From a virus (Duplodnaviria; Caudoviricetes), in the IMG/VR virus record IMGVR_UViG_3300027708_000016: 64,000 bases of DNA; one strand, 5' to 3'. The position numbers and the translations under genes were made by a program. The notes below the pieces were generated by a model. That model saw nothing but the letters and a program-made list of their open reading frames with translations, made no database searches and had not been told where the DNA came from. Below, piece after piece: positions 3,368 to 51,244 of this stretch (its first letter is position 1; the number at the start of each line of letters is the position of its first letter).

Positions 3368-4136
3368 AAAAATAGGTGTTGGTATAACCACTTATAATTC
3401 AGAAGGGTATTTTAAGACTCTTTATGATTCTCTTCCTCTTGATAAGATTGACGAATTGGTTGTAGTTAATGGTGGAGATCGTTATGAGGGAAAATATGAA
3501 TGTGATTGGATACAACATAATAAAAACAGGTATCCTTCAGTGTGTAGGAATGATTGTATAACATTTTTGTTAAATAAACAATGTCAACACATTTTTTTAA
3601 TTGAAGATGACATGATTATAAAAAGTCCAAATATTTTTAATGAATATATCAATGCATCAAAGATTACGGGATTAAATTATTTTTGTTTTGCCAGTATATC
3701 AGTGGATGCGGGTGCTGCGCACGAAAGAACACCAAAATTAAAAGTAAATTATGGAAATTTACTAGAAGTTTATTTTTATAATAATACCTGCAACGAATTT
3801 ACCTATCATCATAGAAGTTGTTTTGAAAAAACAGGGTTATATGATGGAAACATGAGAGAATTATTTGATGCAGATATGGTTTATCGTCAAACCTTAAAAC
3901 ATCCAAATATTTCTCCTTTTTGGTGGTTTAGTGACCTCGGTAACAGTGATGATTTAATAAAAAATAATCCAGATGCGCACAGTCGATTACAAACCGATAG
4001 ACCAGACGGCTCAAGAGAACAGACTATTGTTGGAACAATGCAGTATTTTAAAAATAAACATAGTTTAGCAGTTAATGAAATACCAATTAAAACGGAACTT
4101 GAGGTTGTTGATCATTTAAAAAAAATAAAACCATGA
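3354..4136 (+). CDS. Glycosyltransferase family 2 (GT-A fold)
   Basis: KIGVGITTYN, LVVVNGG, SVCRNDCI, HIFLIEDD, GLYDGN; paralog of the preceding ORF. Confidence 0.82.
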   Translation: MPENEKIGVGITTYNSEGYFKTLYDSLPLDKIDELVVVNGGDRYEGKYECDWIQHNKNRYPSVCRNDCITFLLNKQCQHIFLIEDDMIIKSPNIFNEYINASKITGLNYFCFASISVDAGAAHERTPKLKVNYGNLLEVYFYNNTCNEFTYHHRSCFEKTGLYDGNMRELFDADMVYRQTLKHPNISPFWWFSDLGNSDDLIKNNPDAHSRLQTDRPDGSREQTIVGTMQYFKNKHSLAVNEIPIKTELEVVDHLKKIKP

Positions 4137-4915
4137 AACTTGCTATAGGAATTAATATATTTGGATGTTATAAAAGACAAGATCATTGTATTGAAGTTTT
4201 AAACAAACTTGTATCCAAATATACAAATGACATAGAATTATATAATATAACATTTGAAAATGAAAAAAATTATTTATTGGGGTTTAAGCACTTACCATTA
4301 TTAAAACGAACCGCCAAAGATGTTGCGTTATATTCAATATCAAATAAACCAATAGCAAAAGATTTTTTTGATATTCTTTCTGAGCAAGATTGTGATTACT
4401 TTCTCTTTGTTAACAGTGACATAATGGTTACTGAAAAATTAATAAAGTTAATTTTAAAAGGCGAATATGAAACGTATTGCGTCTCTAGGCATGATGTTTA
4501 TGAAATAAACGATTTATCAGTTGATAAAATTATGCCTTTTAGAATTGAAATAGCTGGATTTGATGCATGGGCAGTTAAAAAAGATTGGTGGATTAAAAAT
4601 AGAGATTTATTTGACGATTATATTTACGCAGAAGCATTATGGGACGTTTTCTTTTCGGTTCAAATGTACAATAATAGTAATTGCATACTTTGTAATAAAG
4701 ATGTTTACTTGGCTCATGAAAAACATGAATTAAAATGGAATGAATTTTCAGCAGAGCATACACATAATGAAAAATTATGGAAAAGTACACCTTATCACGA
4801 AAGGTGGCATAAATTCATATACGATTATTTAACACAAAGACCAACATGGGGTCATTTTTTATACCCATTACCAGATGAGCTTGAAAAAGAAAAAGAATAT
4901 TTAAAAATTAAATGA
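4133..4915 (+). CDS. Putative glycosyltransferase (GT-A-like)
   Basis: DYFLFVNSDI (DxD-variant), VSRHD, AGFDAW, WD motif; glycan-island context. Confidence 0.55.
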   Translation: MKLAIGINIFGCYKRQDHCIEVLNKLVSKYTNDIELYNITFENEKNYLLGFKHLPLLKRTAKDVALYSISNKPIAKDFFDILSEQDCDYFLFVNSDIMVTEKLIKLILKGEYETYCVSRHDVYEINDLSVDKIMPFRIEIAGFDAWAVKKDWWIKNRDLFDDYIYAEALWDVFFSVQMYNNSNCILCNKDVYLAHEKHELKWNEFSAEHTHNEKLWKSTPYHERWHKFIYDYLTQRPTWGHFLYPLPDELEKEKEYLKIK

Positions 4916-5580
4916 AATATATAAATAAATTTTACGAAAAGATATACATTATTCATTGGAAACCTTTAAAAGAAAGAAAAGAATATTTGTCTAAAAAACT
5001 TGAACAGCTTAATTTTTCACATTTAGTGGAATGGGTCGATCAATATGAAACCGAAGAAAATTTACACGGTATTAAAAATGTTTTTAAACTAAATCTAAGA
5101 CTTCTTGCTGTTAATATGTCACATATCTACTGTTACGAAGAACAAATTAAGCACCAATATAAAAACATTCTAATTTTAGAAGATGATATAGATTTTGGAG
5201 AACTAGACATCTTAACTTATTTGGATCAAGTTGCATTTGAATTTCAACAATTAGATGGAGATATTGCATTTCTAAGCACTTGTTGTGGATTAAAGGTTAA
5301 AAAATTAAAACCACCAACTTTATTATATTATGATAAAAATTACGTAACCCGTTGCATGGGTGCTTATGTTGTAAATCTAAGATGCGCTGAAAAATTAATA
5401 GCAATGTGTACAAATTACCATGCAATAGACAGAGTTTTAAATTATTCTTTGCCTCTTATAAATGTAAGAGTATTATGGTCGGGTTTACCTATTAGACAAG
5501 GCAGTGAAACAGGCAAGTATAAAAGCAGCTTTCCACTAGAAATAAGAGATGCTAACGGTAATTACAAAAATATATCATGA
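4912..5580 (+). CDS. Glycosyltransferase family 25-like
   Basis: KIYIIH...ERKE, SHIYCY, ILILEDDI, GAYVVN, AIDR; typical GT25 pattern. Confidence 0.75.
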   Translation: MKYINKFYEKIYIIHWKPLKERKEYLSKKLEQLNFSHLVEWVDQYETEENLHGIKNVFKLNLRLLAVNMSHIYCYEEQIKHQYKNILILEDDIDFGELDILTYLDQVAFEFQQLDGDIAFLSTCCGLKVKKLKPPTLLYYDKNYVTRCMGAYVVNLRCAEKLIAMCTNYHAIDRVLNYSLPLINVRVLWSGLPIRQGSETGKYKSSFPLEIRDANGNYKNIS

Positions 5581-6170
5581 AACTAGAATTAATTAAAAAA
5601 TATTTTAACCCGCAAACCATATTAGATATAGGTGCACATCATGGCGAATTTAATCATCATTGTAGAGCTTATTTTCCTAATAGTTACATATTTTCAATTG
5701 AAGGTAATGAATTATGCGAAGAAATTTTAAAAAATAATAATTGTTTATATCTTATAGCACTTTTAGGTAAAGAAAAACAAAAAACCATTTTTTATAAAAC
5801 AAAACTTGATTTACATTGCACAGGTAATTCTCTTTATAAAGAGTTGACAACTCATTATAATGATATTAATTTAATAAAAGAAGAAAAAGAACTTCAAACT
5901 TTAGATGAAATTTTTTCAGCTAATGAAACTTTTGATTTGATTAAAATAGATACACAAGGTTCCGAGTTAGATATTTTAGAAGGAGGCAAAAAAATAGTTC
6001 AAAACGCAAAAGGCATTTTATTGGAAGTTTCCATAAAACCTTATAACGAAGGCGCACCGTTATATAATGATGTAATAAATTATATGAATAGCATAGGATT
6101 TGAAAATAAAGAATTTTTAGATGGTTCAATGGAATCAATTCAAGCAGATATTCTTTTTATAAAAAAATGA
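5577..6170 (+). CDS. FkbM-family SAM-dependent methyltransferase
   Basis: ILDIGAHHG, SIEGN, TLDE, DLIKIDTQGSELDILEG, LLEVS. Confidence 0.88.
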   Translation: MKLELIKKYFNPQTILDIGAHHGEFNHHCRAYFPNSYIFSIEGNELCEEILKNNNCLYLIALLGKEKQKTIFYKTKLDLHCTGNSLYKELTTHYNDINLIKEEKELQTLDEIFSANETFDLIKIDTQGSELDILEGGKKIVQNAKGILLEVSIKPYNEGAPLYNDVINYMNSIGFENKEFLDGSMESIQADILFIKK

Positions 6171-6859
6171 AACTTTATACCGTTTTTACAGAGTCACATT
6201 ATGAAATGTTCAAAGACTATTTTATTAAATCTTTTCCCTTTGACACGAATTTAGAATTAGTAATTAAATTCAAACCACAGGTTTGTGCATCATCAGAGTT
6301 CCAAAGTGAAGGGTGGAGAGATACTATGAAATATAAAGTTCAATGTTTCATTGATGCTGCATATGAAACAAAAGATGGCGAATGTTTTATGTTTTCAGAC
6401 CCAGATATACAATTTTTTAAACCATTCCATGATGATGTTGTTAAAGAACTAGGTGATTTTGATGCAGCATTCCAAAATGATTATGGTGGCGGTGTTAATA
6501 CGGGATTTTTTATAATGAGATCCACCCCAAAAACTCGTGCATTTTTAAAAACCGTTCAAGGAAATCTTGAAAAATTTCCAGAAGAACAAGTTTGTTTTAA
6601 TTATATAATCAATAACTTTGACAAATTGCCAAAAGTTGCATATAAATGGAAGATGCTACCAAGAGAATATTGGACTTATGGTGAAAAAGCAATACAGATG
6701 GGTGTTAATGGACAACCTTTTAGCACATGGAGTGGAGAAGGAGATTTTGATATTCCTGAGAACATAATAATTCATCATGCTAATTGGGCAACACCATTCA
6801 AAAACAAAATAAAAATTCTTGATGTCGTAAAGGAAAAATACAATGCTAGAAACATTTAA
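6167..6859 (+). CDS. Nucleotide-diphospho-sugar transferase (GT77-like)
   Basis: FMFSDPDIQFF (DxD), FQND, VNTGFFIMR, EQVCFN, IHHANW, K-x-K tail. Confidence 0.72.
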   Translation: MKLYTVFTESHYEMFKDYFIKSFPFDTNLELVIKFKPQVCASSEFQSEGWRDTMKYKVQCFIDAAYETKDGECFMFSDPDIQFFKPFHDDVVKELGDFDAAFQNDYGGGVNTGFFIMRSTPKTRAFLKTVQGNLEKFPEEQVCFNYIINNFDKLPKVAYKWKMLPREYWTYGEKAIQMGVNGQPFSTWSGEGDFDIPENIIIHHANWATPFKNKIKILDVVKEKYNARNI

Positions 6860-7724
6860 AAAATACTGCATCAGGGCAATATACCCACCTTACCCACCTT
6901 ATCATCAAGGTGATTATTTGGAACAATATTTTTTAAAATTTTATTTAAAAAATATAGAAGAATTTAAAAAGCTAGAAAGACAATTTATTCCAGTTTGTTG
7001 GACTGATCTTTATTTAAAAGCTTTACACATAATAAATGATTTAGCGGTTGATTTGTCAAGATTGGATAAAGGTAAAAAATACTTTACCGTATCTCAACAT
7101 GATGATGCACCAGCAGTGCAGTTATTACCACCAGATACGATTAATTTCTCCGCTGGTGGCAATCAACCCAATACCATACCAATTCCATTAATATGTAGCG
7201 CAATACCAAACCCACCAAACCAAAAAAAAGATATATTTTGTAGTTTTGTTGGTAGCGTAACATCACCATCTACAACCTTTGGCGTATTAGCACATGATAT
7301 AAGAATAAAAATGCTCAAAACATTAAAGGATAACCCCGAATATCTTTTAAAACCAAGAAACTGGTCAGAAGATATTAAAAAAGAAAGACAGGATATGTTT
7401 ATAGATATTACTGCTAGAAGTAAATTTACGCTTTGTCCAAGAGGATATGGTGCAACTAGCTATAGAATGTACGAAGCAATGCAGTTGGGTTCTGTTCCAG
7501 TTTACATATACAACGATTTTCCCTTTATACCTTACGCAGACAAGATTAACTGGAACGAAATAGCAGTTTTGATAAACCAAAATGATATGGATAATTTAGA
7601 TGCTATATTAAAATCAATTTCCGATGATCAATACAATCATATGGTTAATAAAATTAAAGAGATATATCCAAAATACTTTACACTTGAGGCAACATGTAAT
7701 AATGTTTTAGAACATTTAAAATGA
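6843..7724 (+). CDS. Exostosin-like glycosyltransferase (GT47)
   Basis: IFCSFVGS, SKFTLCPRGYG, SYRMYEAMQLGSVPVYI, PYADKINW. Confidence 0.85.
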   Translation: MLETFKKYCIRAIYPPYPPYHQGDYLEQYFLKFYLKNIEEFKKLERQFIPVCWTDLYLKALHIINDLAVDLSRLDKGKKYFTVSQHDDAPAVQLLPPDTINFSAGGNQPNTIPIPLICSAIPNPPNQKKDIFCSFVGSVTSPSTTFGVLAHDIRIKMLKTLKDNPEYLLKPRNWSEDIKKERQDMFIDITARSKFTLCPRGYGATSYRMYEAMQLGSVPVYIYNDFPFIPYADKINWNEIAVLINQNDMDNLDAILKSISDDQYNHMVNKIKEIYPKYFTLEATCNNVLEHLK

Positions 7725-8482
7725 AAAAAATATTATTTGTAATTGCAAGATATAATGATAATAGGCAGCAAATATTTGATGAAATTATCTCTCCTAGAAA
7801 CAAAGCTTATTGTGATAAGCACGGATTTAAATATATTGTAATTGGTAATTCCGCACCTTTGTTTTTATATAGGCACAATCCCACATGGTGGAAATTTTCT
7901 ATTGTAAAAGATCTTATTGATCAAGGAAAACTAGAAAATGGTGATATCCTTGCTCATATCGATGCTGATATGTATTTTGTTAATGATTCGGTTTCAATTG
8001 AAACACCAAAATCTTTTTCATATGCAATAGATTCTGGTAATACCCATTGCATGGGTTGGTACAGCATAAAAGTTAATGATTGGTCAAAAAAATTAATCAA
8101 TAATATTCTTTCACAAGAAAGATTTAATAAATTACACAATAATGTCACAATACATGACAGATTTAAAACATATTCTAGTTTTTGGAATGAATTTAGAGAG
8201 CAAGCAAGTTGGTATAGTTTAGCAGGAATTAAAAGACATTCCGATAAACCGTTTTGGGAATATCCCAACAATGGTTTTCATAGTGAAATGAATGAAGATG
8301 TAGTCTATTCAATTGATGAATTAAATGAAAATGTTCAAATATTTGATACGGGATTTAATGTAACCGAATGGCAAGGCGAAAGTGGTTGCCAGTTTAATAT
8401 TAATAAAGTTTCAGTCGATAATGTTGTAATTAGACATTTTGCTGGTGGTCAAGATTGGAATAGTGTTAAAAATTGGTTATAA
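7721..8482 (+). CDS. Putative glycosyltransferase (GT34/MNN10-like)
   Basis: NKAYCDKHGFKY, WWKFSIV, LAHIDADMYF (DxD), EQASW, IRHFAG. Confidence 0.65.
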   Translation: MKKILFVIARYNDNRQQIFDEIISPRNKAYCDKHGFKYIVIGNSAPLFLYRHNPTWWKFSIVKDLIDQGKLENGDILAHIDADMYFVNDSVSIETPKSFSYAIDSGNTHCMGWYSIKVNDWSKKLINNILSQERFNKLHNNVTIHDRFKTYSSFWNEFREQASWYSLAGIKRHSDKPFWEYPNNGFHSEMNEDVVYSIDELNENVQIFDTGFNVTEWQGESGCQFNINKVSVDNVVIRHFAGGQDWNSVKNWL

Positions 8483-9175
8483 ACCTTTAGATTTTAAAAA
8501 TGGTACAATATAATTGTTATATGTATTATTTGACATTGGGTAATATTCAAAGCAATGAAATTTAAGCATTGTTACTGATGAATTAAGATTAAATGAAAAA
8601 TTATATTTTTCAGAAATTCTTCTTGACCATTCGATATCTTCAGATTGCCCCCAAGTCAATTCCTCATTAAGAGGAATTTCTTTCATAATTTCTTTTTTAG
8701 CAACCCAATATGAACCATTTATATACATCCACTTAGAACATCTATTTTCAAAATAAGGTAATAAATGCTCATGATTAGGTAAACTGTCTTTTGGTAACTC
8801 TTTTGATGAATGCCACAACCAATCTCTATATCTTTGTCCGTTATTTAATATAACATTACTACATACTTTAAAATCATTACCAAATTTTAAATAACCTTCA
8901 TACCAATTATTATCAAAAACATGATAATCATGCATATAAACAATATTATTATATTTTGCATTTTCTGTTATTATATTTTTTTTTCTAGTAGTCCAATTTT
9001 GTTTTATAGATTCATCAAATTCAATAGTTTTAACAAAATTTTCATCTTTAAAATTAGATTTACCAACAATTATAACTTCAAAATTTGGTATTTTTAATTT
9101 TTTAACCGAATCAATAATTGTAGGAATGTATTGATTTGTATGCTCGGTTGTAGTAATTCCAAAAGTAAAATCCAT
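8477..9175 (-). CDS. GT2-like glycosyltransferase
   Basis: FTFGITT, EVIIVG, TRKKNII, IVYMHDY, WGQSEDIEWS. Confidence 0.65.
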   Translation of the reverse strand: MDFTFGITTTEHTNQYIPTIIDSVKKLKIPNFEVIIVGKSNFKDENFVKTIEFDESIKQNWTTRKKNIITENAKYNNIVYMHDYHVFDNNWYEGYLKFGNDFKVCSNVILNNGQRYRDWLWHSSKELPKDSLPNHEHLLPYFENRCSKWMYINGSYWVAKKEIMKEIPLNEELTWGQSEDIEWSRRISEKYNFSFNLNSSVTMLKFHCFEYYPMSNNTYNNYIVPFLKSKGL

Positions 9176-9183
9176 AAATTAAT

Positions 9184-9927
9184 TTATATTAGAATCCAAT
9201 TTTTTAAATCCAAAGGTCTTAAATCATGATCATCTGGTTTAGGATTTGGTAAATAGGGCCATTTATTATCGCTTATTGGAAAATATATTTTATCTGCATT
9301 TGATATATATGCTGCAAACCATGAAAAAGTTGATTTTGATATACAGATTTTTTTTGCATTTTTAAGATAAATAAAATCTGACAAAGAATCTAATGATCTT
9401 ATATTACATCCAAGACTACTAAAGTCTTTTAAATAATCGCTATAAGGCTCATCAGTAACAATAGTGCATCGATTTGGCTTTTCCATTAATATAGCTTTTA
9501 AATACAAATTTTTATCAGTTATACTTCCACCACCAGCAAATACATAATCTGTTAAACGTATATGTATTACTAATTCATCATCTAATGGTTTTTCATATTG
9601 ATTTTCGTTTTCAATTTGCAAATAATTTATTACATTCTGTCTTCCTATTTGTTTGAAACATTCATATTTATGTATCATAAAATCAATACACCAACCATTT
9701 TTTGAATTTTTAACATTTTCAAAGAATTTTTCTCTATTATTATTGTAAATTTCACTTGCTGATTTAATATTATCGTGTACTATACCATCTTTTATTTCAT
9801 AGGTGTTTAAAAACCCTTGTATTTTTTCAGGTATAAACTTCATACCAGTTAATTTATGACAATGCATAGCCGCTACGAAATAATGTAGTCTATTACCCAT
9901 TCTACCATCGGATCTTATTGTTATCAT
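9184..9927 (-). CDS. Alpha-1,2-fucosyltransferase-like (GT11)
   Basis: GRMGNRL, VIHIRLTDY (HxRxxD), DF..L..A, SKSTFSWFAAY. Confidence 0.8.
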   Translation of the reverse strand: MITIRSDGRMGNRLHYFVAAMHCHKLTGMKFIPEKIQGFLNTYEIKDGIVHDNIKSASEIYNNNREKFFENVKNSKNGWCIDFMIHKYECFKQIGRQNVINYLQIENENQYEKPLDDELVIHIRLTDYVFAGGGSITDKNLYLKAILMEKPNRCTIVTDEPYSDYLKDFSSLGCNIRSLDSLSDFIYLKNAKKICISKSTFSWFAAYISNADKIYFPISDNKWPYLPNPKPDDHDLRPLDLKNWILI

Positions 9928-9972
9928 TTTATTAAATAGTATTAAAATTTATAATGTAACATCAATTATATT

Positions 9973-10671
9973 TTAAACCCATACTCTAAAAGATAATCTT
10001 CTATTTCTAAAATTTAAAAAATCACTTGGTTCAATAAATTCTATATTTCCTGCGATATGATTAAGCATATGTGCATCAAATTGCTCATTGTTTACGGAGT
10101 TTTCGCAAAAATGTTTAATTTGATCATCAGATAAATCTTTTAATTTTAAAAAATTATTATAAGAAGTAATAAAAAAATGGCTACTTGTTTCTGTTCTATT
10201 AAACTGTTTGTCTCCTATATGGAAACATGGTGATACGTTGGCATTTTCATTAAAAAATTTCTCAGCATCTTTAATTCTTACAAAATTATCATGTCTAGAT
10301 CTAATGATATAATCATATTTTTTATTGTTTTCTTTTAGATATTTAGCAATATAAATCAAATTGTATGCAAAAAAAGGAAATCCATCATCACGACATTGAT
10401 GATATTGACTCATATCTTTCTGTTCCAAAAAAATTGGAATATCAACAACATCTTTTATTTGTTCATTTAAAAGGTTGATATCATAATCATAAAGATAATT
10501 TGCGCCTTCGTTTACTTTATGATTGCTATAGGTTCCTTTTTTGGGATACCAAGTTAAAAAAATAACTTCGACATCATGAGTCGGAAAGCAATCCTTTAAT
10601 GCTTGAATATTGGTTTTAATATCATCTAAACACTCTCTAATTGCGCCTACAAAAATCAATCCTAATTTCAT
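9973..10671 (-). CDS. Hypothetical glycan-island protein; paralog of 13053..13778
   Basis: Shared motifs KLGLIFVGAIR / VIFLTW / YDYIIRSRHD. Confidence 0.5.
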   Translation of the reverse strand: MKLGLIFVGAIRECLDDIKTNIQALKDCFPTHDVEVIFLTWYPKKGTYSNHKVNEGANYLYDYDINLLNEQIKDVVDIPIFLEQKDMSQYHQCRDDGFPFFAYNLIYIAKYLKENNKKYDYIIRSRHDNFVRIKDAEKFFNENANVSPCFHIGDKQFNRTETSSHFFITSYNNFLKLKDLSDDQIKHFCENSVNNEQFDAHMLNHIAGNIEFIEPSDFLNFRNRRLSFRVWV

Positions 10672-10677
10672 TGATAA

Positions 10678-10684
10678 TATTTAT
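10678..10684 (-). promoter_or_regulatory. T4-like late promoter (ATAAATA) for the inverted 3-gene block
   Basis: Minus strand reads GATAAATA-ttatca-ATG(10671). Confidence 0.5.
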
Positions 10685-10722
10685 CACATGTTGATTTTTT
10701 TCAAGTATTGATATTTATTGTA

Positions 10723-11472
10723 ATGGAAAGTGATATTAACATATTGATACCAATGGCAGGATTAGGCAGCAGATTTGCACATACCCATCCCAACCAATTA
10801 AAACCACTAATTGATGTTTGTGGGGTGGCAATGATTAAAAGAGTAATTGAAAATTTAAATCAAAGCCAAAACGCAAATTTTATATTTGTGATACCTAATA
10901 TTTTGAAAAATAACAAGGATTTTTTTAATATATTAAATGAATCAAACATAAAATACAAAATATTAGTAACAGAAACCCTTACGGAAGGACCCGCTTGCAC
11001 GGCTTTATTAGCAAAAGATTTTATAAACAACAACACGCCATTAATAATAACTAATTGTGATCAATACATTGCAGATTTCAGTTTAAATGACCTATTAACT
11101 TTTTCAAAAATAAACAATGCACATGGAGTTGTTGGTGTATTCCATTCTAATTCGAATAAAAATAGTTATATTAAACTAGGAAATGATTTAAGAATACAGG
11201 AAATTAGAGAAAAAATTGTCATTAGTAATATTGCAACTAATGGTTTGCATTTTTGGTCTAAAGGTGTTTATTTTGTTGAGTCGGCAGAAAAAATGATTTC
11301 TAAAAATGAAAAATATAATAATGAATATTATATAGCACCTTCTTATAATAATATGATAACAGATAACAAAAATATTTTACCATACTATTATAATTTACAT
11401 TTTCCAATCGGAACGCCCGACGATTTAAACATTTTTGTAAATGAAGTATTTAAAACTATAAAACACAAATGA
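10723..11472 (+). CDS. Sugar-phosphate nucleotidyltransferase (NTP_transferase / RmlA-GlmU-like fold)
   Basis: NILIPMAGLGSRF, KPLIDV, TEGPACTA, LIITNCDQ, EIREK, EYYIAPSYN, PIGTPDDL; ATG at 10723 preferred over TTG at 10708. Confidence 0.85.
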   Translation: MESDINILIPMAGLGSRFAHTHPNQLKPLIDVCGVAMIKRVIENLNQSQNANFIFVIPNILKNNKDFFNILNESNIKYKILVTETLTEGPACTALLAKDFINNNTPLIITNCDQYIADFSLNDLLTFSKINNAHGVVGVFHSNSNKNSYIKLGNDLRIQEIREKIVISNIATNGLHFWSKGVYFVESAEKMISKNEKYNNEYYIAPSYNNMITDNKNILPYYYNLHFPIGTPDDLNIFVNEVFKTIKHK

Positions 11473-12356
11473 AAAAATTAAAAATAAACTTTGTAGACTT
11501 TTGGCCCAACCTATTTAAAGATGATAATTACTTCTATAATCTTTTAAAAACAAAATATGATGTTGAAATAGATGAAGAAAACCCTGATATATTATTTTTT
11601 TCGGTTGATTACAATAACGAAAGAAACAGGGATAGATATAAAAACTGTTTAAAAATCTTTTATACGGGTGAAAACGTTGAACCAAATTGGAATGAATGCG
11701 ATTTAGCTTATACTTTCAGACATTCAAATGATCCAAGGGAATATCGTTTGCCTTTATGGGCATTGCATTTGAATTGGTTTAATAGACCCTATATCGCAGA
11801 AAGAGATCATGCTTATTTACACGATTTAGAGTCATTTTTAGATAAAACCAAAATTAAAAAACTAAACAAAACTGGTTTTTGTTCATTTGTTGCATCACAA
11901 CCCAAAGGAAAAAGAGTTGATTTTGTTCCAAAGCTTTTTAATTACAAACCAGTACATTGCGCAGGACGTTTATATAATAACATAGGTGATGTTTTAGTTT
12001 GTAGAGGTGACCAAATAGAAAAAATAAACTTTTTAAAAAAATTTAAATTTAATATCGCAATGGAAAACACATCTTGTCAAGGTTATTGCACAGAAAAAAT
12101 AATACATTCAATGTTTGGAATGAATATTCCCATATATTGGGGATCAACATCTGTTGAAAGCGATTTTAATCCAGAATCCTTTATTAATTGTCATAATTTT
12201 TCTTCTGATGAAGAAATTATAGAAAAAATTAAAGAATTGGACATGGATGTAGAAAAATATGTTGATATGTTAAAAAAACCTTGGTTTAAAGATGGTAAAA
12301 TTCCAGATTCCGTTCAACCTGATAATGTTATATCTTTAATATCTAATAAAATATAA
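11469..12356 (+). CDS. Alpha-1,3-fucosyltransferase-like (GT10)
   Basis: KINFVDFW, PDILFFS, FYTGEN, FCSFVAS, KFNIAMEN...GYCTEKI, IPIYWG, FNPESFIN. Confidence 0.88.
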   Translation: MKKLKINFVDFWPNLFKDDNYFYNLLKTKYDVEIDEENPDILFFSVDYNNERNRDRYKNCLKIFYTGENVEPNWNECDLAYTFRHSNDPREYRLPLWALHLNWFNRPYIAERDHAYLHDLESFLDKTKIKKLNKTGFCSFVASQPKGKRVDFVPKLFNYKPVHCAGRLYNNIGDVLVCRGDQIEKINFLKKFKFNIAMENTSCQGYCTEKIIHSMFGMNIPIYWGSTSVESDFNPESFINCHNFSSDEEIIEKIKELDMDVEKYVDMLKKPWFKDGKIPDSVQPDNVISLISNKI

Positions 12357-13051
12357 TGAAACCTGATAAAATTTATATAATTCATTATACTAAATTAAAA
12401 GACAGGTATTCAAATTTAATTTCAATTTTAGAAAAATCTAAAATACCTTTTGAATTTATAACACAATATGATAAAGAAGATTTAAAAGAAGATATATTAA
12501 ATAAATTTTATCTACCAAATCCCGAAAAATTTACAAACAAAATTAAACCTTTATGGGATTGTAATATAAATACATTCAGAGTTTTAAGTTCTTCAGAATT
12601 GTCTTGCGCAATTAAACAACTAACTGCTATTAAAAAATTATCTCAAGAGTGTAAAAATTTTGGCATGATCTTAGAAGATGACATTATGTTCGATACGAAT
12701 TTTAATTTACTTTTTAAAAAGTATATCCAAGAAACACCAAACGATTGGGATGCTATTTTTTTAGGTGAAGGTTGCGGTTTTGAATTTCAAAAGTATAAAT
12801 TATCAACAAGTATAAGAAAGAGTGAAAATTCTTATCTAGTCAATAATCCCGCTACAAACTGCGCCGAAGCATATTTATTAAAACCTGATATTGCATCTAA
12901 AATATATGAATCATCATTACCGTTTCAATTAGCTTTTGATTGGGAACTTGCATATCAGTTATATAAATTGAAAGCTAAAACATATTGGTGGTTCCCATCA
13001 ATTGCAAAACAAGGTTCCAGAACAGGACAATATCAATCATCCTTAAGATAA
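12356..13051 (+). CDS. Glycosyltransferase family 25-like
   Basis: KIYIIHY...DR, SCAIKQ, MILEDDI, WDAIFLG, AEAYLL; C-terminus KQGSRTGQYQSS matches RQGSETGKYKSS of 4912..5580. Confidence 0.75.
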   Translation: MKPDKIYIIHYTKLKDRYSNLISILEKSKIPFEFITQYDKEDLKEDILNKFYLPNPEKFTNKIKPLWDCNINTFRVLSSSELSCAIKQLTAIKKLSQECKNFGMILEDDIMFDTNFNLLFKKYIQETPNDWDAIFLGEGCGFEFQKYKLSTSIRKSENSYLVNNPATNCAEAYLLKPDIASKIYESSLPFQLAFDWELAYQLYKLKAKTYWWFPSIAKQGSRTGQYQSSLR

Positions 13052-13052
13052 A

Positions 13053-13778
13053 ATGAGAATAGCAATTTGTTTATCAGGGTTAACTAGATCCATGTGGTAT
13101 TGTTTTCCTGTATTAAAAGAATATATAATAAACGAATTAAATGCAGATGTTTTCTTACATACTTGGGAAATAGATAACGGTGGGCAAACTCCATGCGATG
13201 ATGCAGCAAAATCATGTTCCATCGAAGAAAAAAAAGAATATATTGAAAACAGAATAAAACCAAAAAGATACGTAATAGAAAATTACAACGATTTTTTACA
13301 AAAATACCCAAGCCAAACTCATCCATCAACTGCTCCCATGTATTATTCAATCATGAAGTCTAATGCCCTAAAAAAAGAATATGAATTGGAAAATAATTTT
13401 AAATATGATGTTGTTTTTAGGATAAGAATGGACGTAATGTTTGATACTACGATTGATAAAGAAGAATTAAAAAACGTCATAGAGCAAAAAAAACTATATA
13501 TAGGTTACCATAGTGTAGATAAAATTGAATCTCAACCAAAAATAAGTGATTTTTTTGCTTTTTCAACTTCTGAAAACATGGATTATTATTCGGATGCATT
13601 CAAATTATGGGAAAATAATAGATATTTAAATGGAGAAGATGTATTGAATACACATATATTAAATGCAAATTTAAAATATAAATGGACTAACACGAAAATG
13701 AAATTAACCTACCGTTGGCAAACGTGTAGAGCATATTTCGCCTATGCATATAGACAAAATTTTGCATATCAGGATTGA
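13053..13778 (+). CDS. Hypothetical glycan-island protein; paralog of 9973..10671
   Basis: RIAICLSGLTR, ADVFLHTW, MYYSI, YDVVFRIRMD, ISDFFAFS. Confidence 0.55.
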   Translation: MRIAICLSGLTRSMWYCFPVLKEYIINELNADVFLHTWEIDNGGQTPCDDAAKSCSIEEKKEYIENRIKPKRYVIENYNDFLQKYPSQTHPSTAPMYYSIMKSNALKKEYELENNFKYDVVFRIRMDVMFDTTIDKEELKNVIEQKKLYIGYHSVDKIESQPKISDFFAFSTSENMDYYSDAFKLWENNRYLNGEDVLNTHILNANLKYKWTNTKMKLTYRWQTCRAYFAYAYRQNFAYQD

Positions 13779-13802
13779 TTTTTTAAAATTTTATTATATA
13801 AT
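13775..13802 (+). promoter_or_regulatory. sigma70-like promoter
   Basis: TTGATT(13775)-16 nt-TATAAT(13797-13802), ATG at 13811. Confidence 0.55.
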
Positions 13803-13810
13803 TCTTTTAC

Positions 13811-14773
13811 ATGAAAAAAATTGCTTTTTATTTGCCGCATATTGATATACAAGGAACAGGGGTGTCAGTTTTAGATTATTGTAAATTTAATCAAGAAATT
13901 CTTGGTAATAAATCATTTATGATTCATGATTTAAATCATCCAGCCAATCATGAACTAGCCATTGAAAAATTTAAAAATAATAATATAGAAATAATATCTT
14001 TGAAGGGTAACGAAGATACGAATGAATTGGAAAGAAAATTGGACGAACTCAAAGTTGATGCAGTTTACATTCAAAAAACAGGAAGAAAGGATGACGGCAG
14101 ATTTGCTAAAAATAAACCTTCATTCATACATGTAATAGGAACCCAAAATGATCCTCACGGGACAGTCTATGCTTATGCTAGTGAATGGTTAAATCAGCAT
14201 TGCACAGGGGGAACTTATCCAGTTGTTCCTTATATGGTTCATCTACCTGAACACCATGACAATTTTAGAGATAAACTAAAACTACCCGAAAATGCAATAG
14301 TTTTTGGTAGAACAGGTGGAATATATTCTTGGAACATGCCTTGGGTTAGTCAGACTATAGAAAAAGCACTCTCGTTAAGAGATGATATATACTTTTTATT
14401 CGTACAGACCCCTCAATTTATAAAACACGAAAGAGTTATATATACAAGTCCATTTTCTGACCTTTATATAAAAAGAAAATTCATTAACACATGTGATGCA
14501 ATGATTCACGCAAGAGCAGAAGGCGAATCATTTGGTATGGCTTGTGCAGAATTTTCTTATAGTAATAAACCAGTTATAACATATAGTAATTCACCAGAAA
14601 GAAATCATATTTACGTTTTAAAGGATAAAGGTTTATATTATGATTCTCCTCAAACACTGTTAGATATACTTTTAAAATTTGAAATTCAAGATAAAGATTG
14701 GAATGCCTATCGTGAATTTACGCCAGAATCAGTAATTAACCAATTCAAAAAGGTTTTTATTGATAAAATATGA
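13811..14773 (+). CDS. GT-B fold glycosyltransferase (GT4-like)
   Basis: GTGVSVLDY, VFGRTGG, CDAMIHARAEGESFGMACAEF, KPVIT. Confidence 0.78.
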   Translation: MKKIAFYLPHIDIQGTGVSVLDYCKFNQEILGNKSFMIHDLNHPANHELAIEKFKNNNIEIISLKGNEDTNELERKLDELKVDAVYIQKTGRKDDGRFAKNKPSFIHVIGTQNDPHGTVYAYASEWLNQHCTGGTYPVVPYMVHLPEHHDNFRDKLKLPENAIVFGRTGGIYSWNMPWVSQTIEKALSLRDDIYFLFVQTPQFIKHERVIYTSPFSDLYIKRKFINTCDAMIHARAEGESFGMACAEFSYSNKPVITYSNSPERNHIYVLKDKGLYYDSPQTLLDILLKFEIQDKDWNAYREFTPESVINQFKKVFIDKI

Positions 14774-15090
14774 AAATTCTAAATATAGAAGATTTTATAG
14801 GTGGATGGTTCATTGGAGATTTTGAACCATCGGTTTTAAAAACCAAAGATTTTGAAGTTTGTTTTAAAAAACATGTTAAGGATGAAATTTGGCCCAAACA
14901 TTATCATCGAATAGCAACCGAAATTAATTATTTGATTAAAGGTGAAATGATAATACAGGGTAAACTACTAAAAACGGGTAATATTTTTATCTTAGAACCA
15001 AATGAATGGGCTAATCCAGTATTTTTACAAGATTGTGAACTTATAGTAGTAAAAACACCTTCTATAAAAGGTGATAAATATGAAAATTAA
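14770..15090 (+). CDS. Small cupin-fold protein
   Basis: GWFIGDFEP, WPKHYHRIATEINYLIKGEM (H-x-H...E cupin motif), FILEPNE. Confidence 0.8.
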   Translation: MKILNIEDFIGGWFIGDFEPSVLKTKDFEVCFKKHVKDEIWPKHYHRIATEINYLIKGEMIIQGKLLKTGNIFILEPNEWANPVFLQDCELIVVKTPSIKGDKYEN

Positions 15091-15118
15091 TTGACTTTTT
15101 TACTATTTATTATATAAT
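15091..15118 (+). promoter_or_regulatory. sigma70-like promoter of the RLP gene
   Basis: TTGACT(15091)-16 nt-TATAAT(15113-15118), ATG at 15128. Confidence 0.6.
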
Positions 15119-15127
15119 ATTATTATT

Positions 15128-16342
15128 ATGCTTAAATACGACATTTTTAAACCAGAATACAAATTAGACTCTTCCTTCTTTGCTAATTATTTTATTGTAA
15201 CATACTTAATTGGTTCAAAAACCGATTTAAAAGATGCCGCATGGAATCTAGCTATCGGGCAATCAATTGGAAATCCAAGTAAGCGTTCCGAATTTGAGAG
15301 CCAAGATTTGATTGACAATCATTGTGCTATTATTTTACATGATGAAAAATCCTTAGAGAATCTTAAAGAAGGTATTGTTAAGATTGCTTTTGCTGAAGCA
15401 AATATTAACTTTAAAACGGACGGAGTATCCCAATTGCTAGTCCAAATAATGGGAGGTCAATGTGACATTGATATTTTTGAAAAGTGTGTTATTAAAGATA
15501 TAAAATTAACTCCAAATATGGAGAACTGTTTGCAGGGACCTAAAATTGGTCTAAAAGAAATGAGAGAATATTGTGGTGTATCACAGGAAAAGCCTTTATT
15601 TGGTGGGATTGTGAAACCAAAAGTTGGTCTTTCGCCACAAAAAAATCTTGATTTGGTAAAAAAACTCATTGATGGCGGCTGTAACTTCATAAAAGAAGAT
15701 GAAATTCTTTCAGATCCCGATCATTGTAGAATTGAAGATCGTGTTCCCCCTGTAATGGATTATATTAAAAGCACTAATGCAAAAGTTTATTACGCAGTTT
15801 CAATCCATTCCGATCCTGCACACATTTTAAATCGTGTTAAGCAAGTTTATGAATTGGGTGGAAATGCTGTTCATGTAAATTTCCATTGTGGATTAGGTGT
15901 TTATAAGTCTATTAGAGAACTTGATTTACCAATTCTAGTTCACTTCCAGAAAAGCGGTGATAAAATTTTAAATTGTTATGATCATAAATTTGCAATTGAT
16001 CAAGATGTAATCTTTAAACTTGTTGGGCAAAGTGGCTGTTCGACGCTTCATGCTGGTATGATCGGTGGATACATGGATAATGAAACACAGGCGGTAAAGA
16101 AGACTATTTCCATGTTGAATGATATAAATTGCGTCCCAGCTTTAAGTTGTGGAATGCACCCAGGTTTAATTGATTATATTTTAGATGTGGTTGGACATAG
16201 CAACTGGATGGCAAATGTCGGCGGTGCATTAACATCACATCCAAGTGGTACTTTGGCAGGTACAAAGGCTATGAGACAAGCAATCGATAAGAATTACGGG
16301 GATGAATATCATCAAGCCATTGAAAAATGGGGTAAGAAATGA
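15128..16342 (+). CDS. RuBisCO-like protein (form IV RLP, RuBisCO large-subunit superfamily)
   Basis: GGIVKPKVGLS (K175/K177), NFIKEDEIL (K201/D203/E204), LVHFQK (H294), LHAG (H327), PALSCGMHPG, NVGGALTSHPSGTLAGTKAMRQA; 404 aa. Confidence 0.93.
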   Translation: MLKYDIFKPEYKLDSSFFANYFIVTYLIGSKTDLKDAAWNLAIGQSIGNPSKRSEFESQDLIDNHCAIILHDEKSLENLKEGIVKIAFAEANINFKTDGVSQLLVQIMGGQCDIDIFEKCVIKDIKLTPNMENCLQGPKIGLKEMREYCGVSQEKPLFGGIVKPKVGLSPQKNLDLVKKLIDGGCNFIKEDEILSDPDHCRIEDRVPPVMDYIKSTNAKVYYAVSIHSDPAHILNRVKQVYELGGNAVHVNFHCGLGVYKSIRELDLPILVHFQKSGDKILNCYDHKFAIDQDVIFKLVGQSGCSTLHAGMIGGYMDNETQAVKKTISMLNDINCVPALSCGMHPGLIDYILDVVGHSNWMANVGGALTSHPSGTLAGTKAMRQAIDKNYGDEYHQAIEKWGKK

Positions 16343-16755
16343 TAGTAATTTCTCATAGAGGGAATACTACTGGCCCAGTTAAACAAACCGAAAATCGACC
16401 CCAAACAATTCAACCTTTATTGGATAAAAATATCCACGTGGAAATTGATGTTTGGTTAATAGGTGACAGTTTTTTCTTGGGTCATGATGACCCTTTATAT
16501 AAAACCGATATAAAATTTTTATTACAAAAAAATCTCTGGTGTCATGCAAAAAACTTAAAATCATTAGAAGAAATGTTAAAACACGATATTAATTGTTTTT
16601 GGCATGAAAACGATAAACACACTTTAACATCTAATGGTTATATTTGGACTTATCTTAATCAAAAAACATGTGATAAATCCATAATAGTTGATTTATCAAA
16701 AAACTGGAAAGAAAAAAATTATAATTGCTATGCCATTTGTGTTGATTACTTGTAA
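16339..16755 (+). CDS. Short GDPD/PLC-like phosphodiesterase-fold protein
   Basis: MIVISHRGN, EN, HVEIDVW, FLGHD, LWCHAKN, ICVDY. Confidence 0.72.
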   Translation: MIVISHRGNTTGPVKQTENRPQTIQPLLDKNIHVEIDVWLIGDSFFLGHDDPLYKTDIKFLLQKNLWCHAKNLKSLEEMLKHDINCFWHENDKHTLTSNGYIWTYLNQKTCDKSIIVDLSKNWKEKNYNCYAICVDYL

Positions 16756-51162: not shown

Positions 51163-51244
51163 ATTTCTAAATGTATTTACCCTACGAAATACCACTTTTT
51201 ACAAAATCTTTTTTTATTTGATTACGATGGTAAGTATTTGCACG

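What the first reader, a model, noticed from the sequence alone, without database searches (positions are those of the whole stretch)
15128..16342. Phage-encoded RuBisCO-like protein (form IV) with a remodelled active site
Seen: a full-length 404 aa RuBisCO-fold ORF in an otherwise clearly T4-like phage. By eye (RbcL numbering) it keeps K175/K177 (KPK), the carbamylation/Mg site K201-x-D203-E204 (KEDE), H294, H327 and the phosphate loops (SCG, GG). It appears to lack E60 (GQS), N123 (MGGQ), R295 (HF) and loop-6 K334 (GGYM). Established: loss of these residues marks non-carboxylating RLPs, whose known activities include DK-MTP-1-P enolase (B. subtilis MtnW), MTRu-1-P isomerase (R. rubrum) and transcarboxylase/decarboxylase steps in apiose catabolism. 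Inference: no methionine-salvage or catabolic genes are nearby, so this RLP probably does new biosynthetic sugar-phosphate chemistry. I know of no characterised phage RLP.
Basis: partly seen in the sequence, partly recalled or inferred. Interest (0 to 1): 0.95.

Follow-up and report, generated by a model that had tools for sequence, protein, structure and literature searches.

The report
Phage RuBisCO-like enzyme feeding sugar activation
A freshwater T4-like phage carries a real RuBisCO relative that cannot fix CO2; in phages, SAR11, Legionella and tiny archaea this enzyme sits beside, or fused to, a sugar-activating enzyme in glycan gene clusters, which suggests an undescribed job for the RuBisCO fold.

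Summary
The ORF at 15128-16342 is real: 404 aa, Pfam RuBisCO_large E=1.6e-34, and an AlphaFold model with pLDDT 94 and TM 0.86 to type III Rubisco.

The Mg/carbamate site (K175, K177, K201, D203, E204), H327 and the P1 phosphate cradle are kept. E60, N123 and K334 are lost. One register error needs correcting: the retained His is H292, H294 is Gln and R295 is Lys.

The gene sits in a true T4-like myovirus, inside a glycan island between gp47 and gp46.

Phage RLPs of this clade ('form IV-like') were reported by Jaffe et al. 2019, with no function assigned.

What I add:
- The clade (100/100 support) also includes SAR11, Legionellaceae, Actinobacteria, CPR and DPANN genes.
- Its 21-site active-site signature is nearly invariant across 39 sampled members.
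- In 62 of 66 loci a specific nucleotidyltransferase lies nearby, often with a small cupin and a miniature GDPD-like phosphodiesterase.
- Fused ORFs link RLP, cupin and GDPD-like each to the nucleotidyltransferase, and GDPD-like to RLP.

Most likely the RLP enolises or isomerises a ketose phosphate, and the nucleotidyltransferase then activates the product for glycan decoration. The substrate is unknown.

This scan found the same module earlier on other DNA.

The parts
15128..16342 (+). RuBisCO-like protein (404 aa) of the 'form IV-like', nucleotidyltransferase-linked clade. The Mg/carbamate site and P1 phosphate cradle are kept; the carboxylation and hydrolysis residues are replaced.
10708..11472 (+). 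Sugar-phosphate nucleotidyltransferase (254 aa, PF00483). It belongs to the family found next to the RLP in 62 of 66 clade loci.
   Evidence: Pfam 2e-09. The family profile matches PDB 4evw, an 'NDP-sugar pyrophosphorylase', at 1.5e-27. Co-occurrence. One RLP-NTP-transferase fusion, P0121.
14770..15090 (+). Small cupin (106 aa) with an HxH(x)4E(x)6G metal motif; invariant H44, H46 and E51.
   Evidence: Alignment A2. Weak PDB profile hits to cupin_2, the 113-aa mannose-6-P isomerase 7zvm and KdgF. Atlas assigns it to cupin clusters. Present in 19/19 viral and 12/47 cellular loci. A cupin+NTP-transferase fusion occurs in L020.
16339..16755 (+). Miniature GDPD-like phosphodiesterase (138 aa). It keeps the HRG, EN, ExD and GHD motifs. 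Its start overlaps the RLP stop (ATGA).
   Evidence: Alignment A3. PDB profile hit to GDPD 7e0v at 3.4e-4, N-terminal motifs only. AF2 pLDDT 96.7; the top Foldseek hits are all GDPDs, TMq 0.53-0.63. Overlap shown. Fusions: GDPD-like+RLP (P0165) and GDPD+NTP-transferase (L041).
13053..13778 (+). DUF7796 protein (241 aa), a frequent accessory of the module and a candidate transferase of unknown activity.
   Evidence: Pfam DUF7796 at 4.7e-06. The same BLAST family occurs in 24 loci, including SAR11 and DPANN. Atlas labels it 'capsular polysaccharide biosynthesis protein'. No PDB match.
1792..16755 (+). Glycan-building island inserted between gp47 (SbcD-like, 737-1795) and gp46 (SbcC-like, 16777-18585). 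It holds the RLP module. Most genes are on the + strand; three (8477-10671) are on the minus strand.
   Evidence: Pfam: GT25 (4912-5580 and 12356-13051), FkbM methyltransferase (5577-6170), Nucleotid_trans (6167-6859), GT47/RXYLT1-like (6843-7724), GT10 fucosyltransferase (11469-12356), and a weak GT1 hit at 21.4 bits, below the 26.4-bit cut-off (13811-14773). Flanks identified by PHROGs.
15091..15118 (+). Best sigma-70-like promoter match in the region (TTGACT-16-TATAAT, 11 of 12). It ends 9 nt before the RLP start codon, and no Shine-Dalgarno sequence is visible. Status uncertain.
   Evidence: The total count of promoter-like sites is not above shuffles (57 against 47), so this is a lead only.

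Best explanation
The ORF encodes a folded, catalytically competent RuBisCO-fold enzyme that cannot carboxylate. It is the signature enzyme of a conserved module: nucleotidyltransferase + RLP as the core, with a small cupin, a miniature GDPD-like phosphodiesterase and DUF7796 as frequent accessories. The module lies in surface-glycan gene clusters.

Proposed mechanism:
1. The carbamylated Lys189, with Mg2+ held by Asp191 and Glu192, abstracts a proton next to the carbonyl of a phosphorylated ketose. The phosphate is held in the retained Gly342/Gly365/Gly366 cradle.
2. The CO2-binding residues (E60, N123, K334) and the water-activating residue (H294) are replaced, so the enediolate is reprotonated rather than carboxylated or cleaved. 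The clade-specific residues Y315, C341, Q274 and K275 are candidates for this step. The product is an isomer or epimer, possibly with a rearranged skeleton.
3. The partner nucleotidyltransferase converts that sugar phosphate into an NDP-linked donor.
4. Transferases of the island add it to a glycan. The island encodes many glycosyltransferases. In Legionellaceae the neighbouring transferase is LicD-family, a family annotated as phosphocholine transferases.

In this phage the 15-kb island between gp47 and gp46 probably builds a glycan on virion proteins or on the infected cell's envelope.

Shown: fold, residue pattern, clade, gene linkage and fusions. Inferred: the reaction type, the order RLP before nucleotidyltransferase, and the final acceptor. 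Unknown: the substrate.
For: Integrity of the protein:
- AF2 pLDDT 94.3 and TMq 0.86 to type III Rubisco.
- 49 positions are at least 98% conserved among 134 family members. They include the metal/carbamate site and new N-domain motifs such as GQSxGxP and GGxxDI.

One conserved function:
- The 21 active-site positions read GNPGIKKKDEQKDHYxSCGGG in 34 of the 39 clade members sampled. The other five differ at one or two further sites (H298, R295 or G380).
- The sample spans phages, SAR11, CPR, DPANN, Legionellaceae and Actinobacteria, down to about 31% overall identity.
- The pattern differs from MtnW, OiaX-like and bona fide RuBisCO.
- The clade is one branch with 100/100 support.

Linkage to the nucleotidyltransferase:
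- It is present in 62 of 66 clade loci and within two genes in 54.
- It is absent from the five loci with other RuBisCO forms.

Fused ORFs:
- RLP+NTP-transferase (P0121).
- GDPD-like+RLP (P0165).
- Cupin+NTP-transferase (L020) and GDPD+NTP-transferase (L041).

Glycan context:
- GDP-mannose dehydratase, UDP-GlcNAc 2-epimerase, methyltransferases and many glycosyltransferases in phage loci.
- GT17, GT61 and RmlD-like genes in SAR11, and Wzz and GT2 genes in Francisellaceae.
- A LicD-family transferase lies beside RLP+NTP-transferase in all four Legionellaceae loci.

Analogy: a longer paralogue of the same nucleotidyltransferase is fused to a HAD beta-phosphoglucomutase-like domain. The upstream partner there supplies the sugar phosphate.

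Coupling: the RLP stop overlaps the mini-GDPD start.
Against: - No biochemical data exist for any member of the clade.
- The substrate cannot be read from the sequence.
- The order of steps is not fixed. The residues that cap the P1 phosphate in RuBisCO (T65, W66, K334) are all replaced, so the RLP could instead act on an NDP-linked ketose after the nucleotidyltransferase.
- The role of a phosphodiesterase (GDPD-like) in a biosynthetic route is unexplained.
- The RLP-NTP-transferase fusion P0121 is seen on a single 2.5-kb contig.
- LicD was found only in the four Legionellaceae loci, so a phospho-transfer donor is not general evidence.
- No RNA run was listed for the gene, so expression is not shown.
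- Glycan islands hold many nucleotidyltransferases, so some co-occurrence is expected. However, the specific family and the fusions go beyond that.
Confidence: 0.6

Rival explanations
1. Reversed order. The nucleotidyltransferase first activates a common ketose phosphate, as in the known CDP-fructose and CDP-xylulose routes. The RLP then isomerises the NDP-linked ketose, binding the beta-phosphate in the P1 cradle.
For: The residues that close over the P1 phosphate in RuBisCO (T65, W66, K334) are all replaced, while the glycine cradle is kept. That could open space for a nucleotide. The fusions are compatible with either order. That ketose phosphates can be cytidylylated rests on the abstract of PMC10918830, listed, and on my own knowledge.
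Against: No RuBisCO-superfamily enzyme is known to take a nucleotide-linked substrate. By analogy with the HAD-mutase+NTP-transferase paralogue, the partner acts upstream. In the Legionellaceae, the module's own families comprise only RLP, NTP-transferase and LicD, which fits a simple supply-activate-transfer order; three further conserved neighbours there have no family match.
Confidence: 0.2
2. Methionine or SAM by-product salvage. The RLP is an MtnW-type enolase or a Rhodospirillum-type methylthioribulose-1-P isomerase, carried as an auxiliary metabolic gene.
For: MtnW structures are among the best full-length PDB sequence matches (2oej, 1.5e-24). The substrates of those enzymes are ketose 1-phosphates, the same chemical class as proposed here.
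Against: The NCBIfam mtnW models score 98.7 and 119.7 bits against cut-offs of 513.6 and 409. The active-site pattern differs from a bona fide MtnW at 10 of the 21 sites; for example, the Lys at the N123 position is Gly and H294 is Gln. The clade is separated from MtnW with 100/100 support. No mtn-type families appear among the neighbours scanned; the neighbours are glycan genes.
Confidence: 0.04
3. The module makes an activated sugar for phage DNA hypermodification, as in glucosyl- or arabinosyl-hmC in T-even phages, rather than for a protein or envelope glycan.
For: The island lies among replication and recombination genes: gp47, gp46 and DNA polymerase in the window, and directly after the DNA polymerase in L010-L013.
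Against: Cellular members sit in surface-glycan loci with Wzz, GT2, GT17, GT61 or LicD. The window's island encodes about ten transferases of different families and methyltransferases, which suits a complex oligosaccharide.
Confidence: 0.08
4. The protein is a non-catalytic relic or structural subunit, or a true carboxylase or nucleotide-salvage (AMP pathway) RuBisCO.
For: It has the full RuBisCO large-subunit fold, and type III Rubisco is its closest structural match.
Against: E60, N123, H294 and K334, which carboxylation and hydrolysis need, are all replaced. Near-invariance of 20 of the 21 active-site positions across domains of life and down to about 31% identity argues against a relic. 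The fusions of form III RuBisCO with the AMP-pathway isomerase (P0171, P0179) fall outside the clade.
Confidence: 0.03

Closest known systems
'Form IV-like' RuBisCO-related proteins of phages and Beckwithbacteria (Jaffe, Castelle, Dupont and Banfield 2019, Mol Biol Evol, PMC6389311)
   Same: Both are phage (Myoviridae) encoded, highly divergent RLPs with changed key residues, and both group with Beckwithbacteria sequences. A Beckwithbacteria MAG gene (L034) falls in the same 100/100 clade as the window's protein.
   Different: That paper left the function open. It does not mention nucleotidyltransferases, cupins or glycosylation, and it saw the clade as essentially phage plus Beckwithbacteria. 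Here the clade also includes SAR11, Legionellaceae, Actinobacteria, Verrucomicrobia, Bacteroidota and DPANN, and it is tied to a nucleotidyltransferase. I did not compare sequences from the paper directly.
MtnW/YkrW 2,3-diketo-5-methylthiopentyl-1-phosphate enolase (PDB 2oej, 2oek, 2zvi)
   Same: Same fold, retained carbamate/Mg site, one phosphate site, and enolisation chemistry without carboxylation.
   Different: About 23% identity. NCBIfam scores lie far below the cut-offs. The active-site pattern differs, the clade is separate, and the neighbours are glycan genes rather than methionine-salvage genes.
Apiose-pathway RLPs (3-oxo-isoapionate-4-phosphate decarboxylase OiaX and the related transcarboxylase/hydrolase)
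   Same: RLPs that act on unusual, branched sugar-acid phosphates. They show that the fold handles non-RuBP sugar phosphates.
   Different: NF042437 scores 117 bits against a cut-off of 700. The OiaX-like clade (P0186) keeps H294, R295 and K334, which are replaced here. Those enzymes are catabolic; this one is in a biosynthetic setting.
Type III RuBisCO (Thermococcus kodakarensis 3a12/3kdo; 8dht)
   Same: Closest solved structures (TMq 0.86-0.87) and the best sequence hit. K175, K177, K201, D203, E204 and H327 are shared.
   Different: E60, N123, H294, R295, H298 and K334 are replaced. There is no AMP-pathway context. TIGR03326 scores 141.6 bits against a cut-off of 497.
Supply-activate-transfer routes to CDP-linked donors (TarJ/TarI for CDP-ribitol; LicA/LicC/LicD for phosphocholine; CDP-6-D-fructose in Campylobacter jejuni HS:5, PMC10918830)
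   Same: The logic is the same: an enzyme makes a phospho-alcohol or ketose phosphate, a nucleotidyltransferase activates it, and a transferase adds it to a glycan. In Legionellaceae the transferase next to RLP+NTP-transferase is LicD-family.
   Different: None of those routes uses a RuBisCO-fold enzyme. The nucleotidyltransferase here matches no named NCBIfam equivalog. This comparison rests on established knowledge and one abstract, not on a test.

Membership tests
Bona fide RuBisCO (forms I-III) | Carbamylation and Mg site with the catalytic lysines (K175, K177, K201, D203, E204) | tested here: met
   K163, K165, K189, D191 and E192 align to these positions in hhalign.
Bona fide RuBisCO (forms I-III) | Carboxylation and hydrolysis residues E60, N123, H294, K334, plus P2-site R295 and H298 | tested here: not met
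   They read G44, G110, Q274, Y315, K275 and D278.
Bona fide RuBisCO (forms I-III) | Score above the curated NCBIfam cut-offs (TIGR03326, NF003252, NF010002) | tested here: not met
   141.6 against 497; 137.3 against 438; 86.7 against 489.
MtnW (DK-MTP-1-P enolase) | Score above the TIGR03332 / NF007095 cut-offs, and placement in the MtnW clade | tested here: not met
   98.7 against 513.6 and 119.7 against 409. The bona fide MtnW representative P0257 (652 bits) lies outside the 100/100 clade that holds the window's protein.
MtnW (DK-MTP-1-P enolase) | MtnW active-site pattern, including Lys at the N123 position (the general base in Geobacillus MtnW, from my own knowledge) and retained H294 | tested here: not met
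   MtnW representatives read K at N123 and H at H294. The window's protein reads G and Q.
MtnW (DK-MTP-1-P enolase) | Methionine-salvage gene neighbourhood | tested here: not met
   The neighbours are glycosyltransferases, a nucleotidyltransferase, a cupin and a GDPD-like protein. Two island ORFs (8477-9175 and 9184-9927, minus strand) were not scanned.
OiaX/OiaT apiose-pathway RLPs | Score above the NF042437 cut-off, and placement in the clade | tested here: not met
   117.1 against 700. The OiaX-like representatives P0186 and P0178 lie outside the clade.
Rhodospirillum-type MTRu-1-P 1,3-isomerase (IV-DeepYkr) | Grouping with the characterised R. rubrum RLP | not tested
   No labelled reference sequence of that enzyme was available from the tools. 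All non-clade RLP representatives fall on the other side of the 100/100 branch.
'Form IV-like' phage/Beckwithbacteria clade (Jaffe et al. 2019) | Encoded on myovirus-type phage genomes from diverse environments | tested here: met
   T4-like genes in the window. Twenty IMG/VR loci. Freshwater metagenomes.
'Form IV-like' phage/Beckwithbacteria clade (Jaffe et al. 2019) | Groups with Beckwithbacteria sequences, apart from other RLPs | tested here: met
   The Beckwithbacteria MAG gene L034 lies inside the clade. The paper's own sequences were not compared.
Nucleotidyltransferase-linked RLP module (defined here and in earlier reports of this scan) | Active-site signature GNPGIKKKDEQKDHYxSCGGG at the 21 canonical positions | tested here: met
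   The window's protein reads GNPGIKKKDEQKDHYMSCGGG.
Nucleotidyltransferase-linked RLP module (defined here and in earlier reports of this scan) | A 4evw-like nucleotidyltransferase in the same gene cluster | tested here: met
   Window 10708-11472, six genes upstream on the same strand. The family is present in 62 of 66 loci.

The most novel reading that the evidence does not exclude
The 'form IV-like' clade is one isofunctional enzyme family that catalyses a reaction not yet known in the RuBisCO superfamily: an epimerisation, carbonyl migration or skeletal (alpha-ketol type) rearrangement of a ketose phosphate. Its product is the dedicated substrate of a partner nucleotidyltransferase. This would define a new nucleotide-activated sugar or phospho-sugar donor, used for surface or virion glycans by T4-like phages, SAR11, Legionellaceae, CPR bacteria and DPANN archaea.
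Probability: 0.55. Interest if true: 0.85.

Novelty: new variant of a known kind. Interest (0 to 1): 0.7.

Why it matters
RuBisCO-like proteins have so far been assigned only to methionine salvage, SAM by-product recycling and apiose catabolism. A large, cross-domain clade wired to a sugar-activating enzyme would give the fold its first anabolic role in glycan biosynthesis. It would probably also reveal a new activated sugar.

The carriers are ecologically and medically relevant:
- SAR11, among the most abundant marine bacteria.
- Legionella species.
- Episymbiotic CPR and DPANN organisms.
- Many aquatic T4-like phages.

The product probably shapes cell or virion surfaces that phages and grazers recognise.

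The hypothesis is directly testable with two to four small soluble proteins.

Tried and rejected
- tblastn of the RLP against 50,697 GenBank phage records found nothing. No cultured phage in that set carries it.
- No whole genome is held for the window.
- Control-genome hits for PF00016 gave no usable reference sequences. I therefore labelled reference clades with NCBIfam on library representatives.
- Pfam and NCBIfam gave no family for the cupin or the mini-GDPD.
- The PDB profile search for DUF7796 was empty.
- Literature searches for 'rubisco-like' with nucleotidyltransferase, cytidylyltransferase, Pelagibacter or 'form IV-like' found no functional study. A broad six-term search was uninformative.
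- The GOS paper notes new RuBisCO homologue groups but gives no context.
- A LicD profile built from the Legionellaceae found no LicD in the phage or other loci. I therefore do not generalise the phospho-transfer reading.
- No RNA-seq run was listed.
- The promoter scan is not above chance overall.
- I considered a chimeric contig, a dead enzyme, a true carboxylase and MtnW, and rejected each on the evidence given under the rival explanations.
Full report
**The object**

The ORF at 15128..16342 (+) is intact, starts with ATG and encodes 404 aa.
- It matches Pfam RuBisCO_large at E=1.6e-34.
- All six NCBIfam RuBisCO/RLP models match it only far below their curated cut-offs. Rubisco_III scores 141.6 against 497, mtnW 98.7 against 513.6, and OiaX 117.1 against 700.
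- The best PDB sequence matches are a type III Rubisco (8dht, 1.6e-28) and Geobacillus MtnW (2oej, 1.5e-24).
- An AlphaFold2 model built on a 27-sequence family alignment has mean pLDDT 94.3 and pTM 0.90.
- Foldseek aligns the model to type III Rubisco (3kdo, 3a12, 8dht) with TMq 0.86-0.87 at 22-24% identity. Solved RLPs (3nwr, 1ykw, 2oem) rank slightly lower.

It is a complete RuBisCO large-subunit fold, and no close relative has a solved structure.

**Active site**

I aligned a profile of the family (A4) to a profile of bona fide RuBisCOs (A5). The members of A5 were checked with NCBIfam. hhalign gave probability 100% over 382 columns. Spinach numbers are assigned by motif, from established knowledge.
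- Retained: K175 (K163), K177 (K165), K201 (K189), D203 (D191), E204 (E192), H327 (H308), S379 (S340), G381 (G342), G403/G404 (G365/G366).
- Replaced: E60->G44, T65->N49, W66->P50, N123->G110, H294->Q274, R295->K275, H298->D278, K334->Y315, G380->C341.

The His it saw (H272) corresponds to H292. H294 is Gln, and R295 is a conservative Lys.

By established RuBisCO mechanism, E60, N123 and K334 position CO2 and the carboxylated intermediate, and H294 is linked to hydration and cleavage. The enolisation machinery is kept and the carboxylation/cleavage machinery is gone.

**The genome around it**

PHROGs identifies the following:
- SbcD-like gp47 (737-1795)
- SbcC-like gp46 (16777-18585)
- family B DNA polymerase (19975-22551)
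- a DnaB-like helicase
- the large terminase (39531-41417)
- tail sheath (48733-51195)

The polymerase is only about 30% identical to its nearest cultured relatives: Pelagibacter phage Mosig, Methylophilales phage Melnitz and HTVC008M. GC content is even across the window. The stretch occurs in freshwater metagenomes of seven studies, of which three samples may be the source of this DNA.

The RLP lies at the end of a roughly 15-kb island between gp47 and gp46. The island encodes:
- two GT25s
- a GT10 fucosyltransferase
- a GT47/RXYLT1-like protein
- a Nucleotid_trans protein
- a weak, sub-threshold GT1-like match (21.4 bits against a cut-off of 26.4)
- an FkbM methyltransferase
- a DUF7796 protein
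- a PF00483 nucleotidyltransferase

The contig is a genuine T4-like myovirus, not a host chimera.

**Is it known?**

tblastn finds no RuBisCO homologue in 50,697 GenBank phage records.

Jaffe et al. 2019 (PMC6389311) had already reported about 80 non-redundant 'form IV-like' RLPs on phage scaffolds, including Myoviridae and one curated phage of about 200 kb. These grouped with Beckwithbacteria, and the authors left the function open. Their text never mentions nucleotidyltransferases, cupins or glycosylation.

My searches found no later functional study.

**How large and how wide the family is**

A search of 5.8 billion proteins returned over a hundred clusters of about 400 aa at 54-76% identity. 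In the 50%-identity library, 40 representatives scored below 1e-30. IMG/VR gave 20 viral loci.

A scan of one genome per prokaryotic species gave 57 loci, including:
- a complete Candidatus Pelagibacter chromosome (53% identity) and many SAR11 single-cell genomes
- a closed Verrucomicrobiae chromosome
- Legionella drozanskii, L. nautarum and L. maceachernii (31-32%)
- Nonomuraea rosea and Azospirillum oleiclasticum
- Beckwithbacteria, and many Woesearchaeota and Nanoarchaeia

An IQ-TREE analysis of 82 sequences (LG+G4) puts all 53 of these on one side of a branch with 100/100 support. On the other side lie MtnW (P0257), OiaX-like (P0186), form II (P0244), form III/I-like (P0169) and the other RLPs. 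A 186-row FastTree agrees. The window's protein sits in a phage-dominated subclade.

**One function across the clade**

At the 21 canonical active-site positions, 34 of 39 sampled clade members read GNPGIKKKDEQKDHYxSCGGG. The sample spans phages, SAR11, CPR, DPANN, Legionellaceae and Actinobacteria. The other five differ at one or two further positions (H298, R295 or G380).

The pattern differs from the other groups:
- MtnW reads GS-KIKVKDEHPSLSVSAGGG.
- Bona fide RuBisCO reads ET-NIKKKDEHRHHKMSGGGG.
- OiaX-like sequences differ as well.

Within 134 close members, 49 positions are at least 98% conserved. These include new N-domain motifs at the loops that carry E60 and N123 in RuBisCO. This is remodelling under selection, not decay.

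**Gene context**

ORF calling, clustering and HMMs built from the phage copies were run over 66 clade loci.
- A specific nucleotidyltransferase family is present in 62 loci and within two genes in 54. It matches PF00483, and its profile matches PDB 4evw at 1.5e-27.
- A 140-150-aa GDPD-like protein is present in 43 loci (a separate clustering splits these into a short form of about 150 aa and a long form of about 250 aa).
- A 106-aa cupin is present in 31 loci.
- A DUF7796 protein is present in 24 loci.
- SDR-type sugar-nucleotide enzymes are present in 22 loci.
- The five loci that hold other RuBisCO forms (L072-L076) have none of these partners.

Fused ORFs occur in the assembled contigs:
- RLP+nucleotidyltransferase (P0121; seen on a single 2.5-kb contig)
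- GDPD-like+RLP (P0165)
- cupin+nucleotidyltransferase (L020) and GDPD+nucleotidyltransferase (L041)

In the window, the RLP stop overlaps the mini-GDPD start (ATGA).

Neighbourhoods are glycan-type:
- GDP-mannose 4,6-dehydratase, UDP-GlcNAc 2-epimerase, and FkbM and TylF methyltransferases in phages
- GT17, GT61 and RmlD-like genes in SAR11
- Wzz and GT2 genes in a Francisellaceae genome

In all four Legionellaceae loci only RLP+nucleotidyltransferase is present, next to a divergently transcribed LicD-family protein (PF04991 3e-43). LicD was not found in the other loci.

**The partners**
- The cupin has the HxH(x)4E(x)6G motif, with invariant H44, H46 and E51. It has weak profile matches to small cupins, among them a 113-aa mannose-6-phosphate isomerase and KdgF.
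- The 138-aa protein keeps the GDPD motifs HRG, EN, ExD and GHD. It folds with pLDDT 96.7 into a compact domain whose best Foldseek matches are all GDPDs, at modest scores (TMq 0.53-0.63, E about 1e-3).
- The nucleotidyltransferase matches no named NCBIfam equivalog.
- Homologues of the nucleotidyltransferase at 41% identity exist in cultured cyanophages without an RLP.
- A longer paralogue of the nucleotidyltransferase in locus L007 (452 aa; cyanophage S-CAM9 carries a comparable 461-aa ORF) has a HAD beta-phosphoglucomutase-like domain fused upstream. In that case the upstream partner supplies the sugar phosphate.

**Interpretation**

Shown: a competent-looking, non-carboxylating RuBisCO-fold enzyme, one conserved active site across domains of life, and tight genetic and physical (fusion) linkage to a nucleotidyltransferase in glycan clusters.

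Inferred:
- The RLP uses the carbamate/Mg2+ site to enolise a phosphorylated ketose.
- It releases an isomer or epimer. RuBisCO itself makes xylulose bisphosphate by misprotonation (established knowledge). Y315 and C341 are candidate proton donors.
- The nucleotidyltransferase then activates the product.
- Island transferases add it to a glycan on the virion or the infected cell.

The LicD neighbour in Legionellaceae hints at a CDP-X, phospho-transfer type of donor, but only for that lineage.

The reverse order, with the RLP acting on an NDP-ketose, is not excluded. The replacement of the P1-capping residues T65, W66 and K334 would be compatible with it.

The role of the phosphodiesterase is unexplained. 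Expression is not shown, because no RNA run was listed.

**Verdict**

The interpretation that this is new biosynthetic sugar-phosphate chemistry is supported by context.

The existence of phage RLPs is published, and the enzyme is not phage-specific. The functional link to nucleotide activation appears undescribed in the searchable literature.

Earlier reports of this scan reached the same reading on other genomes. I saw the cross-genome reports only after reaching mine from the data. The titles of two first-reader notes on this same stretch came back, after I had stated my reading.

Noticed in passing
P0159 (583 aa, library representative; not in the window): An N-terminal TIR_2 domain (3.3e-13) is fused to a complete RuBisCO-like protein of a different RLP clade. 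A TIR-RLP fusion might belong to a defence or signalling system.
   Followed up: no
P0171 and P0179 (726 and 742 aa, library representatives): An IF-2B family domain (ribose-1,5-bisphosphate isomerase type) is fused to a form III RuBisCO. Two AMP-pathway steps are in one polypeptide, and both proteins lie outside the clade studied here.
   Followed up: partly
window 16339-16755: The GDPD-like protein is only 138 aa, about half a normal GDPD barrel. It still folds with pLDDT 96.7 and keeps the catalytic motifs. It may be a minimised barrel or one that assembles by oligomerisation.
   Followed up: partly
window 15091-15127: A near-consensus sigma-70-like promoter (11 of 12) ends 9 nt before the RLP start codon, with no Shine-Dalgarno sequence. 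The mRNA would be nearly leaderless, or the match is a chance product of the AT-rich spacer.
   Followed up: partly
window 6843-7724: A GT47/exostosin-like protein also matches the RXYLT1 C-terminal domain (44.8 bits). RXYLT1 is the family of the mammalian enzyme that extends ribitol-phosphate on dystroglycan, a pathway that also uses an IspD-type nucleotidyltransferase and LicD-family transferases.
   Followed up: no
L079 (Synechococcus phage S-CAM9, 4341-5726) and L080 (phage Bellamy, 3992-5149): Cultured cyanophages carry the same nucleotidyltransferase family at about 32-41% identity, inside longer ORFs in glycan clusters and without any RLP. By analogy with L007, the extra part of the S-CAM9 ORF may be a HAD phosphomutase-like domain. 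This looks like a parallel, RLP-independent route.
   Followed up: partly
L022 (Saccharibacteria MAG contig) and L023 (372-kb contig of an 'uncultured bacterium' MAG): Their RLPs are 68% identical to the window's and nest inside the phage subclade with the same four-gene order. These contigs may be phage genomes, one of jumbo size, binned into bacterial MAGs.
   Followed up: no
L065, L067, L068 (Legionella), about 3-6.7 kb of each locus: Beside LicD+RLP+nucleotidyltransferase, three further conserved proteins (about 113, 295-337 and 328 aa) have no Pfam or NCBIfam match. They may complete the Legionella version of the pathway.
   Followed up: partly
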